Positions 1,219-23,761 of a stretch of DNA of 64,000 nt are shown in pieces; within the stretch, counting starts at the first letter, position 1, and every line of letters begins with the position of its first letter. Position numbers and translations under genes: made by a program. The notes beneath the pieces were generated by a model that made no database searches, was not told where the DNA came from, and saw nothing but the letters and a program-made list of their open reading frames with translations. Source of the DNA: a virus. The stretch lies in IMG/VR virus record IMGVR_UViG_3300020416_000002, one strand, 5' to 3'.

Positions 1219-1247
1219 ATTATAGTATAAAAAAAGAGGGGTGTAAA
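1219..1247 (-). promoter_or_regulatory. Sigma70-like early promoter overlapping a terminator
   Basis: TTTACA-N17-TATAAT. Confidence 0.65.
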
Positions 1248-1255
1248 CCCCCCTT
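1229..1255 (-). terminator. Intrinsic terminator of the riboswitch/DUF4278 unit
   Basis: G-rich/C-rich stem (GGGG..TTTACA..CCCC) followed by a U tract. Confidence 0.7.
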
Positions 1256-1278: not shown

Positions 1279-1380
1279 TCAGATCTCTGTACCCCTCAAT
1301 AGGAGTACTTCGCCGTAAATAAACGCGAGAAACACGGCACATCCTATGGAGATTCCTCCGACAATGTATAGTGCTTCCAT
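1279..1380 (-). CDS. Small membrane peptide (33 aa, not in ORF track)
   Basis: MEALYIVGGISIGCAVFLAFIYGEVLLLRGTEI*, 4 nt after DUF4278 stop. Confidence 0.6.
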   Translation of the reverse strand: MEALYIVGGISIGCAVFLAFIYGEVLLLRGTEI

Positions 1381-1384
1381 TGGT

Positions 1385-1528
1385 CTAACTCTTAGAGGCG
1401 AACTTGCGTTTCACCTTAATGCCACGATACATTAGTTCATGGTTACGGTTTTGTTCTCTCTCTGCGAGAACTTTTGCTTTATATCCTTCGGCGTCGTATT
1501 TGACACCGCGATAGGTGATTTGAGTCAT
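1385..1528 (-). CDS. DUF4278-family small protein (47 aa, not in ORF track)
   Basis: MTQITYRGVKY...ELMYRGIKVKRKFASKS*; twin YRG motifs, SD AGGAG, directly downstream of glutamine aptamers. Confidence 0.85.
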   Translation of the reverse strand: MTQITYRGVKYDAEGYKAKVLAEREQNRNHELMYRGIKVKRKFASKS

Positions 1529-1560
1529 TTGCCTTCTCCTGAAGTAGTTGGGATTTTAGC

Positions 1561-1762
1561 CCCGTTCCTTCAGTCGTTTGCGTCCCATGTACATGTTAGA
1601 CCCATTGTTTCAACTAGATGAACTTGATAGATTTCCATGATTTCAATCCTCTGTTGAGGTGTGAGGTCAGGATGTCTTTTTACGCGATCAAGCTTTTCAG
1701 CAATATCCGCACAAGTTACACCTGCGACCAATAGTCCTACTAAATGTATCATAGGATGAACG
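1561..1762 (-). ncRNA. Glutamine riboswitch aptamer 2 (glnA / Downstream-peptide class) with ORF-containing P2 loop
   Basis: 5' half CGUUCA-UCCUAUG (1762-1750); 3' half CAUGGGA-CGCAAA-CGACU-GAAGGAACG (1589-1563); P1 and P2 pair. Confidence 0.7.
1570..1752 (-). CDS. 60-aa protein nested inside the riboswitch
   Basis: MIHLVGLLVAGVTCADIAEK...CTWDAND*; hydrophobic N-terminus, start in P2 stem, stop in aptamer core. Confidence 0.65.
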   Translation of the reverse strand: MIHLVGLLVAGVTCADIAEKLDRVKRHPDLTPQQRIEIMEIYQVHLVETMGLTCTWDAND

Positions 1763-1764
1763 CT

Positions 1765-1805
1765 CCGTTCCGCGACCTACTTGCGTCCCTTTCGGGATGA
1801 ACGAT
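1765..1805 (-). ncRNA. Glutamine riboswitch aptamer 1
   Basis: AUCGUUCA-UCCC GAAA GGGA-CGCAAGUA-GGUCG-CGGAACGG; P1 CGUUC/GAACG and GNRA-capped P2. Confidence 0.75.
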
Positions 1806-1811
1806 ATGTGC

Positions 1812-1820
1812 ATTATAACA
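1812..1820 (-). promoter_or_regulatory. Extended -10 promoter for the riboswitch transcript
   Basis: TGtTATAAT; predicted TSS near 1805, the first base of aptamer 1. Confidence 0.65.
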
Positions 1821-1843: not shown

Positions 1844-1861
1844 ATTGTAACATTTTGTAAA
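1844..1861 (-). promoter_or_regulatory. HLR1 (RpaB-binding) direct repeat
   Basis: TTTACAAA-AT-GTTACAAT, exact match to (G/T)TTACA(T/A)(T/A)-N2-(G/T)TTACA(T/A)(T/A). Confidence 0.6.
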
Positions 1862-4021: not shown

Positions 4022-7000
4022 TTATAGGAATGTAGGTTCTCCATCTTGACCTCCATACACAACTATATTAACATCCCTTAGGTCTTCTGGAGCAGGAATG
4101 CCGTTATATATTGTAACACCAAATCCCGTAGTTGTCCTGTCGTATACGGTAGCATCAACTAAACCGCCAGGAAAATTGTTTGTGCCTCTACCGTTGATGA
4201 CCACCGCATAGTTATTATCATTCATTTCGTCAGCAAAGTTCACTTGGTAAACACCTGTAGATTGCTGTTCAATGGAACTAACATTGTGTGATCTATCGCC
4301 AGGCACATAGTCACTGTTACCCACACCTAAGTTAGTATTCATATACCATGCAGTAGCACGACCCTCAAACATTTGAGTGTGTGTGCATGTCTTTAGACCT
4401 GCCTTATTTTTATACTCTCCTACCCTCAAGACTTTATGGAAGTCACTGTTGAATACTTGAATGGAGTTACCCATACTACCCATGGTAGTTCCAACTCCAA
4501 CACCATAGTAGAATAACTGAGGTGTCTCTTCAGTGACTTCAATTTCTGTGAATGTTCCAGTAACAGTAACACCTTGAGTCATCTTAGCAGGACTTGTAGT
4601 ACCAAACCCTACTGGATCACCTGACGCTGCATAGTAAAATTCAAGAGGATAATTTGCCTGCTGTGCAGCATTTTCAAATCTATATGTTTGTCCTACCTCA
4701 AACCTTAAGTAAGGTGACTCAAAACCTTGAATGTTGATTGATCTATCAGATCCAACACCAATATATCTGTGATCTGCTGTCTTAGTACCAAGAGTAACAG
4801 GTAGAGGTAAGAAGTTTGCTTTGTGCTCAGTGTAGAGACTCTTAGATGTCTCTGCAGCACCTGTTAAGGTAGAGAATGACGCTGCCTGTGCAAAGTTAGC
4901 ATTGAGTGCATTAGAGGCGATTCCTGCGTTGTCTGCGAAGGTAGCAACACCTGCAAGGTTTGCAAAGGTAGCAACTCCACAGATGTCAGCATGAGGAACC
5001 TTCTGAACTGATACAGTTGTAATACCAGAAGATACTGAAGTAACATCAATGCTTTGTGCAAAGTTAACAGTGATACCTGTTCCTACAAAACTTCCACCAT
5101 TCTGAATACCAATACCACTACCTGTAGCAACGATACCAGTGAGTTGACTACCATCACCAAAGAATTTGTCAGTGGTTCTGATAGGATTATTAGTAAAGAT
5201 ATCAAAGTCACTCGTGATACCTGATGCTACACTAGCAGTGGCAGAGTTACCTGTACACTGATCAGCAACTCCAGCAGTATTAGCACGAGTTACAGCAACA
5301 CCAACGGCAAGAGAGTTAGCAGTTTCAGCAACGGTCGCTACACCAGCAACAGATGCGAAGTCTGCGGTAGATGCATTAGGAATTGTACCAGCAGTAATTG
5401 TGGCAACACCAGCAGATACTGTAGTAATATTAAACTCCGATCCAAAGTCGATAGTAGCAGCAACACCAACTTGAGATCCATTACTGGTAATACTAACACC
5501 AGATCCAGCAGCAATCACACCAGTGATAGCAGATCCATCACCAGCAAACGCTGTGGCAGTGATAACACCAATAGTATTGACACTTCCATCAGTTCCTACA
5601 CCAGCAAACTGAAGTTCAATAGGTCTAGTGTATGCAGCAAATGCTACATCAGTTCTAGATGCTCTAGTAATTAAAGTTTGACCACTAGCAATACCAATAT
5701 TATCAATCGTTAAATCTTGTAATGGTTGTAGTCTCTGTCCAAACACAAAGAAATCTGCAACGCTAAAGGTGCTAGTGTCACCTTCGGCAATACCAACGGA
5801 GACTGCAGCAGTTTGATCAGAGTTTCTATTTGATACATGAATAGTTGCTACACCATCATACTTTGATGTAAATAATCCTACATTATCATTAATCTGAGGG
5901 AAAGCAGTGCTACTAATATATGAATTTCTTCTACCTAAATTTTTCTGAACATCTGCATTGACATTACCATATGCTTTGTTAGCGATGACAGTAAAACTTA
6001 CGCCAGGTTCAGATGAGGAAACATATACTGCGTCACCTGGTTTTAAGGTAACATCATCATACATGTCATTGCCACCAACTTTCATTGGAATACCATAGGC
6101 AATGTAATCTGAGTCTAGGTTACCAGCATAGACACCACTTAATTTTGCACCATTGCCGTGAGTAACAGATACATTAAGTCTAGCAAGATCAGCAGCGTCG
6201 CCACCATCTATGGTAACAATATCACCATCAGTATAATTGAGACCATCATTATTAATTACTGCACTAACTACAGTTCCATTATTATCAACCTCAATATCAA
6301 CAGTTAATCCAGAACCAGAACCACCTGCTGCAGACAATACAATGATACCATTCATTGTGGGATGACTCATGCACTGATAGTAGTATGTCCCTGCAGGAAG
6401 TCCTGTAGTGTCCCAAGTAACATTGGCAGTTCCCTGTCCAGTTACACCACCAGCAGCAGCACCACCTAAACTAGTTCTGATAGCAAAGGGGTGAGCAGGA
6501 GCAATAGCAGTTAGATCAACATTAAGAGTGTCACCAACGGTAAGATTAATTGTAGGAGCGTTACCAGATACTGCTCCAAGTCTATCAGTACCACCACCGC
6601 CAAAAGTATAGAAGTCTCCACCATATCCTCCGTGCTGTGCTGAGACAACATATACAGTATATGATTCTGGAGCACTGGAACCAGATATTGATGTAGTGCC
6701 AACATCTGCGTAAATACCTTGTGTATAACCAGTACCATTACTAATAAAAGGACCTAGTGTCTTAGCACCAGTGGCGTTGGCGTTTGGAATTGTAAGGACA
6801 TCACCAGTAGAGTATCCTGAACCATCTGCAACAATTTCAACTTCAGTTACTGCACCATTAGAAACCTCGGTAATATTAACAGACGCTCCTGTTCCAGATC
6901 CTCCAAGCAAAAGTAGATTTGAACCAAGAGAGTAACCAGATCCACCATCAGTGACTGTTAATTCTTGAGCACCACTGTCACCAGATATTGACACAGAGTG

Positions 7001-7144
7001 AGTTAACTCCTCCTCAGTTTGATTTGATGCTGAGATGTTAACTGTTACCATTTCGGTTGCTGTATACAACAGGGTATTGGTAACAGTACCCAGTTGTAAT
7101 GTAGTTTTCAGCGAGGCAAGTCTTCCTATCACGGCTCTAAGCAC
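4022..7144 (-). CDS. Large virion structural / tail-fibre-like protein with inserted cupredoxin-like domain
   Basis: 1040 aa, Gly/Thr/Ser-rich, DGGSGY and AGVAT repeats, HPF...YYYQCMSHPTM; late promoter upstream. Confidence 0.75.
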   Translation of the reverse strand: MLRAVIGRLASLKTTLQLGTVTNTLLYTATEMVTVNISASNQTEEELTHSVSISGDSGAQELTVTDGGSGYSLGSNLLLLGGSGTGASVNITEVSNGAVTEVEIVADGSGYSTGDVLTIPNANATGAKTLGPFISNGTGYTQGIYADVGTTSISGSSAPESYTVYVVSAQHGGYGGDFYTFGGGGTDRLGAVSGNAPTINLTVGDTLNVDLTAIAPAHPFAIRTSLGGAAAGGVTGQGTANVTWDTTGLPAGTYYYQCMSHPTMNGIIVLSAAGGSGSGLTVDIEVDNNGTVVSAVINNDGLNYTDGDIVTIDGGDAADLARLNVSVTHGNGAKLSGVYAGNLDSDYIAYGIPMKVGGNDMYDDVTLKPGDAVYVSSSEPGVSFTVIANKAYGNVNADVQKNLGRRNSYISSTAFPQINDNVGLFTSKYDGVATIHVSNRNSDQTAAVSVGIAEGDTSTFSVADFFVFGQRLQPLQDLTIDNIGIASGQTLITRASRTDVAFAAYTRPIELQFAGVGTDGSVNTIGVITATAFAGDGSAITGVIAAGSGVSITSNGSQVGVAATIDFGSEFNITTVSAGVATITAGTIPNASTADFASVAGVATVAETANSLAVGVAVTRANTAGVADQCTGNSATASVASGITSDFDIFTNNPIRTTDKFFGDGSQLTGIVATGSGIGIQNGGSFVGTGITVNFAQSIDVTSVSSGITTVSVQKVPHADICGVATFANLAGVATFADNAGIASNALNANFAQAASFSTLTGAAETSKSLYTEHKANFLPLPVTLGTKTADHRYIGVGSDRSINIQGFESPYLRFEVGQTYRFENAAQQANYPLEFYYAASGDPVGFGTTSPAKMTQGVTVTGTFTEIEVTEETPQLFYYGVGVGTTMGSMGNSIQVFNSDFHKVLRVGEYKNKAGLKTCTHTQMFEGRATAWYMNTNLGVGNSDYVPGDRSHNVSSIEQQSTGVYQVNFADEMNDNNYAVVINGRGTNNFPGGLVDATVYDRTTTGFGVTIYNGIPAPEDLRDVNIVVYGGQDGEPTFL

Positions 7145-23604: not shown

Positions 23605-23725
23605 TGAAATTAGGGTAAGTATTAGTGCAGGGAAACACTGATTATGGTATTCCTTTGTCACCCTTAGACAAAGGTATGAAAGACTATTATTTAATGTCGC
23701 TGTTTAGTCTTGGTGAGGCGACGAA
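23605..23725 (-). ncRNA. PhotoRC-like structured psbA 5' UTR
   Basis: Pseudoknot GUCGC/GCGAC with AAGACUA/UAGUCUU; hairpin CCUUUGUC-UAAGGGU-GACAAAGG whose loop can pair with ACCCU near the start codon. Confidence 0.7.
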
Positions 23726-23761
23726 GTATGACAGATGTGAGGAATCCCTCATCCGTTCATG

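What the first reader, a model, noticed from the sequence alone, without database searches (positions are those of the whole stretch)
1385..1820. Tandem glutamine riboswitch with a whole protein-coding gene inside the second aptamer
Seen: a compact aptamer (1805-1765) is followed at once by a second CGUUCA start. Its P2 5' strand UCCUAUG (1756-1750) contains the AUG of the 60-aa ORF. The partner CAUGGGA (1589-1583) lies about 160 nt downstream, and the stem extends (UACAU/AUGUA, UUAG/CUAA, single bulges). The aptamer closes with CGCAAA-CGACU-GAAGGAACG, where UGA is the ORF stop, so the last codons (TWDAND*) are the aptamer core. GGUCG in aptamer 1 (1777-1773) can pair with CGACU in aptamer 2 (1576-1572), suggesting a shared pseudoknot helix. 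Established: glnA/Downstream-peptide RNAs bind glutamine and precede YRG-motif DUF4278 peptides. Inference: glutamine-bound folding hides the nested AUG, while translation of the nested ORF melts the aptamer, giving a mutually exclusive switch over two proteins. A covariance search would probably miss aptamer 2 because of the insertion. I know of no description of this arrangement.
Basis: partly seen in the sequence, partly recalled or inferred. Interest (0 to 1): 0.9.

Follow-up and report, generated by a model that had tools for sequence, protein, structure and literature searches.

The report
Gene inside nested glutamine riboswitch
A marine cyanophage starts a small nitrogen-controlled operon with a glutamine-sensor RNA made of two binding cores, one folded inside the other, and one stem of it closes around a real 60-codon gene; hundreds of related phages share this layout, standard scans miss it, and I found no paper describing it.

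Summary
In 437 distinct homologues, mostly viral contigs, covariation shows a nested twin aptamer, not a tandem with a pseudoknot. An outer glutamine-I aptamer (1803-1562) carries a circularly permuted second core in its P3 loop. P1 pair 5 is complementary in 437/437 nested versus 366/437 tandem; the linchpin pairs in 434 and 424 versus 299 and 296. The 60-aa ORF (phrog_504) is under purifying selection (dN/dS about 0.14-0.3), starts in the P2b stem and stops in the E-loop strand. Either P2 stem can be a plain hairpin or hold a 50-70-codon gene (482/487 long inserts). A conserved helix over the ribosome site and folding models predict glutamine turns DUF4278 ON; an NtcA box precedes 247/289 homologues (one mismatch here). 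Whether glutamine turns the nested gene OFF is open: its stem closes without ligand in models, and a terminating ribosome also opens the DUF4278 site, so 'mutually exclusive' is not shown. No binding or expression data. Published work lists only isolated halves in cyanophages. This scan found the same layout before on other DNA (76 notes, at least 58 genomes).

The parts
1847..1860 (-). NtcA-box-like site, one mismatch (TTA-N8-TAC), at the position where homologues carry GTA-N8-TAC
   Evidence: exact box in 247/289 upstream regions (shuffle mean 8, max 17), mostly 53-62 nt before C1; exact in relative L002
1812..1840 (-). sigma70-type promoter with extended -10; predicted start a few nt before C1
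   Evidence: 10/12 match, TG present; position conserved in homologues
1798..1803 (-). outer core: 5' strand of P1 (C1...), pairs with 1567-1563
   Evidence: pair 5 complementary in 437/437, including 5 U-A cases
1786..1797 (-). P2a hairpin (empty here; holds a 61-75 aa gene in many relatives)
1778..1785 (-). outer junction CGCA (G1784 = G22 equivalent, C1783 linchpin) and AGUA strand of the E-loop
   Evidence: C1783-G1562 linchpin covaries C-G/G-C, 434/437 complementary; residue roles from PMC6698751
1773..1777 (-). shared P3 helix, 5' strand; pairs with 1576-1572
   Evidence: 98.5% of cells paired, 3 pairs with changes on both sides
1757..1771 (-). inner, circularly permuted core: GGAACG, linchpin G1765, linker, CGUUCA; GGAG 1766-1763 doubles as an SD-like site for the nested gene
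   Evidence: inner P1 pair 5 G-C/C-G 437/437 (71 swapped), inner linchpin 424/437 (45 G-C); SD-like linker in 188/242 ORF-bearing versus 0/18 empty type-A elements
1570..1752 (-). nested 60-aa gene (phrog_504), two invariant Cys, predicted helical hairpin; AUG in the P2b 5' arm, stop in the E-loop strand
   Evidence: (dN/dS 0.14 against L002; 0.31 over 39 independent pairs)
1583..1756 (-). P2b: closing stem 1756-1750 with 1589-1583 around the ORF
   Evidence: cognate arms 6.2 contiguous pairs against 4.1 for swapped partners (max 4.5); C-G/U-A exchange at pairs 3-4
1562..1582 (-). inner junction CGCA (C1580), P3 3' strand, GAA of the E-loop, outer P1 3' strand, linchpin G1562
1536..1573 (-). 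expression platform: 1573-1568 can pair with 1544-1539, covering the start of the DUF4278 SD (1540-1536); excluded by the bound fold
   Evidence: 16/16 AAA variants with a G linchpin have the matching U partner; opening energy 9.5 free, 4.1 bound
1385..1528 (-). DUF4278 (IF17-like, two YRG motifs) 47-aa gene
   Evidence: 26.2 bits, cut-off 25.3; YRG gene follows 405/437 elements
1279..1380 (-). 33-aa hydrophobic ORF, probable third cistron
   Evidence: not tested further
1234..1255 (-). intrinsic terminator

Best explanation
A phage mini-operon (NtcA-linked promoter, riboswitch, DUF4278, small membrane peptide, terminator) is headed by a twin-core glutamine-I riboswitch. SHOWN by covariation: an outer three-way junction (P1, P2a, E-loop/P3) has, at the far end of P3, a second circularly permuted junction (P1', P2b); both keep the ligand-contact residues and their own long-range linchpin pair. 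SHOWN: P2b closes around a real gene under purifying selection, and either P2 can hold such a gene. INFERRED: without glutamine the 3' strand pairs over the DUF4278 ribosome site; glutamine locks the cores and frees it, so DUF4278 is ON as for host gifB. INFERRED, weaker: the nested gene is translated mainly before P2b closes or when the inner core is unliganded; glutamine lowers its translation because its SD-like GGAG is made of binding-site residues. A ribosome that reads it melts both cores and, on terminating, also opens the DUF4278 site. Folding and translation compete on one RNA, but the two proteins need not be mutually exclusive.
For: Topology: (searches were scans designed as predictions and came out nested), 107 versus 108 (linchpins 100% and 83% paired nested, 54% each tandem), 83 (RNAalifold picks nested), 32 (Rfam scores a natural empty element as one 87-nt aptamer, 43.6 bits). 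Gene: 482/487 inserts are full ORFs; stop codon in 315/316 ORF-bearing versus 95/121 empty. Nitrogen link: searches (NtcA box; DUF4278), PMC6212724. ON switch: (bound fold lowers opening energy in 135/149).
Against: P2b closes without ligand in models (16 kcal/mol opening once transcribed), and PMC6698751 reports the equivalent stems pre-formed without glutamine. Type-B elements carry genes without the GGAG (1/74). The inner core lacks the E-loop and has lost its linchpin in 13/437. Energy models ignore tertiary structure and ligand. Homologues are related, so counts overstate independent events.
Confidence: 0.6

Rival explanations
1. Passenger gene: the riboswitch is real and controls DUF4278, but the small gene merely uses a length-tolerant P2 loop behind a good promoter. 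It is translated at a low, ligand-independent rate from the share of transcripts loaded before the stem closes.
For: Stem closure is ligand-independent in models. Close relatives differ in occupancy (DUF4278 genes 93-98% identical). Distant family members stand free: before the element, after DUF4278, or with no aptamer.
Against: 123/123 close homologues found by protein search are embedded. AUG sits 3-6 nt from the stem base in every long insert. The SD-like GGAG overlaps binding-site residues and tracks occupancy in type A. The stop is fixed in the E-loop strand.
Confidence: 0.25
2. The fold is conserved but no longer senses glutamine as a two-site switch: another ligand, only the outer core active, or the structure serves RNA processing or stability (for example cleavage that releases the nested gene).
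For: No binding test. The inner core lacks AGUA/GAA. Some lineages break the inner linchpin. The 5' half scores below Rfam cut-offs.
Against: All residues that contact glutamine in the crystal structures are kept in both cores. Both linchpins covary independently in all four combinations (288/88/38/7). NtcA box and DUF4278 context match host glutamine riboswitches.
Confidence: 0.1
3. One reading: two tandem aptamers, each with its own P1, joined by a pseudoknot helix.
For: In this window both pairings are equally complementary, and the tandem P1 forms in a partial transcript, so it may be a transient intermediate. It is also how the 2010 alignment treated these halves.
Against: 71/437 homologues break P1 pair 5 in both tandem helices and about 140 break each tandem linchpin, while the nested register keeps them.
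Confidence: 0.03

Closest known systems
Glutamine-I riboswitch (glnA RNA, Rfam RF01739), e.g. the Synechocystis gifB/IF17 leader (PMC6212724)
   Same: Three-way junction with P1, P2, E-loop/P3; same ligand-contact residues; long-range linchpin pair; upstream of a DUF4278 gene; predicted translational ON switch; NtcA-linked promoter.
   Different: A second, circularly permuted core sits inside P3; P2 stems hold whole genes; an ORF stop lies in the E-loop strand; found on phage DNA (the 13 matches in 185,579 prokaryote genomes look like T4-like phage contigs).
Tandem glnA aptamers (PMC2864571; PMC10265488)
   Same: Two aptamer-like units in one leader; the 2010 alignment contains these same phage halves, including P-SSM2.
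   Different: There the halves are aligned as separate aptamers, with the nested ORF as 3' flank. Covariation here shows strand-exchanged, nested pairing.
Glutamine-II / Downstream-peptide riboswitch (RF01704; PMC6698751)
   Same: CGCA junction with C-G linchpin; YRG-peptide target; same binding pocket.
   Different: No 3' pseudoknot helix after the core; has the E-loop/P3 of class I.
Glutamine riboswitch hits reported in cyanophages and other marine phages (PMC5473149: only two; PMC9964418; PMC9004378)
   Same: Same element class; the 99-nt S-CREM1 hit has the length of an empty twin element.
   Different: Reported as rare single hits; here about 450 of the phage records searched match (many are near-identical isolates), and most are hidden from Rfam by the inserted gene.
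Endonuclease ORFs in loops of group I introns; leader-peptide attenuators (own knowledge)
   Same: An ORF in a peripheral loop of a structured RNA; translation competing with folding.
   Different: No splicing or nuclease signature; nested proteins are not Gln-rich (4.4%) and are conserved folded proteins, not leader peptides.

Membership tests
Glutamine-I riboswitch (RF01739) | Ligand-contact residues C1, G22, C58, G59 and the base triple on P1 | tested here: met
   Kept in both cores; roles from PMC6698751
Glutamine-I riboswitch (RF01739) | Long-range linchpin pair closing P1 | tested here: met
   Outer 434/437, inner 424/437, both with C-G/G-C exchange
Glutamine-I riboswitch (RF01739) | Three-way junction with E-loop (AGUA/GAA) on P3 | tested here: met
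   Met by the outer core; the inner core has no E-loop of its own
Glutamine-I riboswitch (RF01739) | Rfam gathering score | tested here: inconclusive
   Window 31.4 < 35 bits because of the insert; natural empty homologue L019 scores 43.6 over the whole element
Glutamine-I riboswitch (RF01739) | 5' of a DUF4278 or nitrogen gene with an expression platform | tested here: met
Glutamine-I riboswitch (RF01739) | Selective L-glutamine binding and gene control | not testable with these tools
   Needs probing, ITC or reporters
Glutamine-II riboswitch (RF01704) | Pseudoknot helix formed with sequence 3' of the core, no E-loop junction | tested here: not met
   24.7 < 33 bits with unpaired stem; E-loop/P3 present instead
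Tandem glnA riboswitch | Each unit closes its own P1 and linchpin | tested here: not met
   366/437 and 299, 296/437 in tandem register; 54% linchpin pairing
Leader-peptide attenuator | Short ORF rich in codons of the sensed amino acid | tested here: not met
   Gln 4.4% of nested residues
DUF4278 / IF17-like | Pfam PF14105 match, YRG motif | tested here: met
DUF4278 / IF17-like | Inactivation of glutamine synthetase | not tested
   PMC6212724 notes short marine forms lack the IF17 C-terminal region needed in Synechocystis

The most novel reading that the evidence does not exclude
A two-site, pseudo-symmetric glutamine riboswitch whose P2 stems are exchangeable gene slots: glutamine binding shuts the enclosed gene(s) while opening the downstream IF17-like gene, so one RNA flips between protein outputs with host nitrogen status, in most T4-like cyanophages.
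Probability: 0.35. Interest if true: 0.9.

Novelty: new variant of a known kind. Interest (0 to 1): 0.8.

Why it matters
It adds two things I could not find described: a natural riboswitch with one binding core circularly permuted inside another, and aptamer stems that enclose whole protein genes. It also challenges the published view that phages rarely use riboswitches (PMC5473149 found two cyanophage glutamine aptamers): this element is in hundreds of cyanophage records but is hidden from covariance scans by its inserts. With the NtcA box and an IF17-like gene it gives a direct, testable route by which cyanophages could sense and adjust host nitrogen assimilation. Natural empty and filled versions make the experiments simple.

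Tried and rejected
Tandem-plus-pseudoknot fold: rejected by covariation. Glutamine-II membership: rejected. Gln-codon attenuator: rejected. Chance ORF: rejected. Host-borne element: 13 matches in prokaryote genomes, all on contigs with T4-like genes or too short to judge. Fold and family of the nested protein: no Pfam, no PDB match, Atlas hits all under 0.9 and unnamed. Whole ORF selected to fold as a rod: window z -5.3, but controls are also negative (nested -2.3 and -3.1, DUF4278 -1.8, other genes -1.1), so only a modest excess. Second P2a family versus P2b family: homology not shown (8%). The DUF4278 tree gives 18-28 changes for the covarying positions, but the protein is short, so these counts are inflated. 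Five literature searches for the layout found nothing. No complex prediction was run.

Full report
Setting. The window is a T4-like cyanophage: the stretch matches P-TIM40, P-SSM7, S-SSM7 and about 450 Synechococcus and Prochlorococcus phage records (many are near-identical isolates). On the minus strand there is a sigma70-type promoter at 1840-1812 and a terminator at 1255-1234. Between them lie the RNA element, a 60-aa ORF (1752-1570, phrog_504, E 2e-15), a 47-aa DUF4278 gene (1528-1385) and a 33-aa hydrophobic ORF (1380-1279).

Observation. Rfam finds no glutamine aptamer at its cut-off and scores only the 5' half, at 31.4 bits.

Topology. I collected homologues by DNA pattern and by protein and parsed 437 distinct complete elements. 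The element has two copies each of the P1 5' strand, the junction and the P1 3' strand, so two pairings are possible. The linchpin is the long-range pair between the junction's third base and the base after the P1 3' strand (PMC6698751). The first junction matches the base after the LAST 3' strand in 434/437, and the second junction matches the base after the FIRST 3' strand in 424/437. All four C-G/G-C combinations occur (288, 88, 38, 7). In the tandem register the counts are 299 and 296. P1 pair 5 is complementary in 437/437 for both nested helices (71 inner swaps, 5 outer U-A) and in 366/437 for both tandem helices. Searches selected on one side of a pair only, so the other side was a prediction. 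On 24 natural empty elements the nested structure pairs 98.9% of cells, with linchpins at 100% and 83%, against 54% each for the tandem register. RNAalifold chooses the nested fold unaided, and Rfam scores an empty element as one 87-nt glutamine-I aptamer (43.6 bits). GGUCG/CGACU is therefore an ordinary shared P3 helix that carries the single E-loop; it covaries in several lengths. Homologues are related, so these counts overstate independent events; a rough tree suggests many changes but is poorly resolved.

The nested gene. P2 lengths are bimodal: under about 65 nt or over 130 nt. Occupancy is P2b only 175, both 141, none 91, P2a only 30; sampling was biased towards filled elements. All long inserts have an AUG near the stem base, and 482 of 487 are complete ORFs that end at the stem or in the core; 307 of 316 P2b ORFs stop in the E-loop strand. 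That codon is a stop in 315/316 filled elements and 95/121 empty ones. dN/dS is 0.31, 0.19 and 0.30 for the three families over independent pairs, and 0.14 for the window against L002. The closing stem averages 6.2 contiguous pairs against 4.1 with swapped partners, with C-G/U-A exchange. One P2a family (phrog_6471) is homologous to the P2b family (hhalign 94.8%). The protein has two invariant cysteines and a predicted helical hairpin (pLDDT 78) with no structural match. All 123 close homologues found by protein search are embedded, but distant ones can stand free: just upstream of an empty element, downstream of DUF4278 in the same operon, or with no aptamer. Elements with DUF4278 genes 93-98% identical differ in occupancy, so genes are gained, lost or exchanged often.

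Nitrogen context. A YRG peptide gene follows 405/437 elements. An exact NtcA box lies upstream in 247/289 dereplicated regions (shuffles 8), mostly just 5' of the -35 box; the window has a one-mismatch version at that position. NtcA sites in cyanomyophages were reported before (PMC3037559). Whether NtcA activates or represses here is not known.

Mechanism. The strand that forms P3 and the E-loop can instead pair with the six bases that run into the DUF4278 SD. Where the E-loop G is an A, the partner is U in 16/16 cases with a G linchpin, whereas with G both C and U occur. Forcing the bound fold lowers the energy to open the DUF4278 start in 135/149 elements; in the window it falls from 9.5 to 4.1 kcal/mol. 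This predicts an ON switch like gifB (PMC6212724). For the nested gene the evidence is mixed. In favour of glutamine repression, its SD-like GGAG is built from the inner core's binding residues and tracks occupancy in type-A elements (188/242 versus 0/18), though not in type B. Against a clean switch, the start costs 7-11 kcal/mol to open until the 3' arm is made and 16 afterwards, with no ligand; and a ribosome at the nested stop lowers the DUF4278 opening cost to 5.8, which would couple the two genes. That translation and the folded aptamer exclude each other on one molecule follows from the overlap; that the two proteins are mutually exclusive does not.

Comparison with what is known. The outer core meets the sequence and structure features of the glutamine-I class; binding is untested. 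It fails the glutamine-II and tandem tests. The 2010 discovery alignment contains these phage sequences, including P-SSM2, but aligns each half as a separate aptamer with the nested ORF as flank (the file is held only in part). A 2017 survey counted two glutamine aptamers in cyanophages and concluded that phages rarely use riboswitches (PMC5473149). Later genome papers list single hits. I found no description of nested cores or enclosed genes, but two key papers could not be read. Earlier notes of this scan reached the same layout on other genomes; I had the nested reading before looking, took the anti-SD and NtcA leads from them, and tested both here.

Verdict. Real, conserved, widespread and apparently unpublished: a new variant of the glutamine-I riboswitch. 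Interest 0.8. The architecture is well supported; glutamine control of the nested gene is open.

Noticed in passing
window 23639-23735 (-): PhotoRC-II RNA, 57.4 bits; the known cyanophage psbA-leader motif.
   Followed up: no
window 1279-1380 (-): 33-aa hydrophobic ORF between DUF4278 and the terminator; probable third gene of the operon.
   Followed up: partly
window 1219-1247 (-): Strong sigma70-type promoter (11/12) overlapping the operon's terminator, ahead of ORF 1198-932.
   Followed up: no
L410:71-524 and L413:1220-1671: Empty twin aptamer, then DUF4278, then a free-standing member of the nested-gene family overlapping the DUF4278 stop; a possible un-nested state of the operon.
   Followed up: partly
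L409:56-484: Nested-family gene with its own SD directly upstream of an empty twin aptamer.
   Followed up: partly
L086, L101, L189, L197 downstream genes: A few elements precede a non-YRG peptide rich in Gln and Lys instead of DUF4278.
   Followed up: no
L281, L300, L305 (P2a) and L583 (P2b): Nested ORFs that read through the stem into the core; L209 has a truncated P2b ORF.
   Followed up: no
L133, L138, L142 and other genome-contig hits: T4-like cyanophage contigs (three of 188-194 kb) lie inside bacterial or archaeal genome records, including a Nonlabens assembly; likely contamination or infected cells.
   Followed up: partly
PMC2864571 manA alignment, NC_006884.1 flank: In that phage a manA RNA lies directly upstream of an element with a P2a-nested gene, so the gene assigned to that manA RNA may be inside the glutamine aptamer.
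   Followed up: no
upstream regions of homologues, 31-35 nt before C1: Late-promoter-like TAAATA/TATATA is enriched between the -35 and -10 boxes, suggesting early and late transcription.
   Followed up: partly
window 4022-7144 (-): 1040-aa Gly/Thr/Ala-rich ORF, resembling cyanophage fibre-like structural proteins.
   Followed up: no
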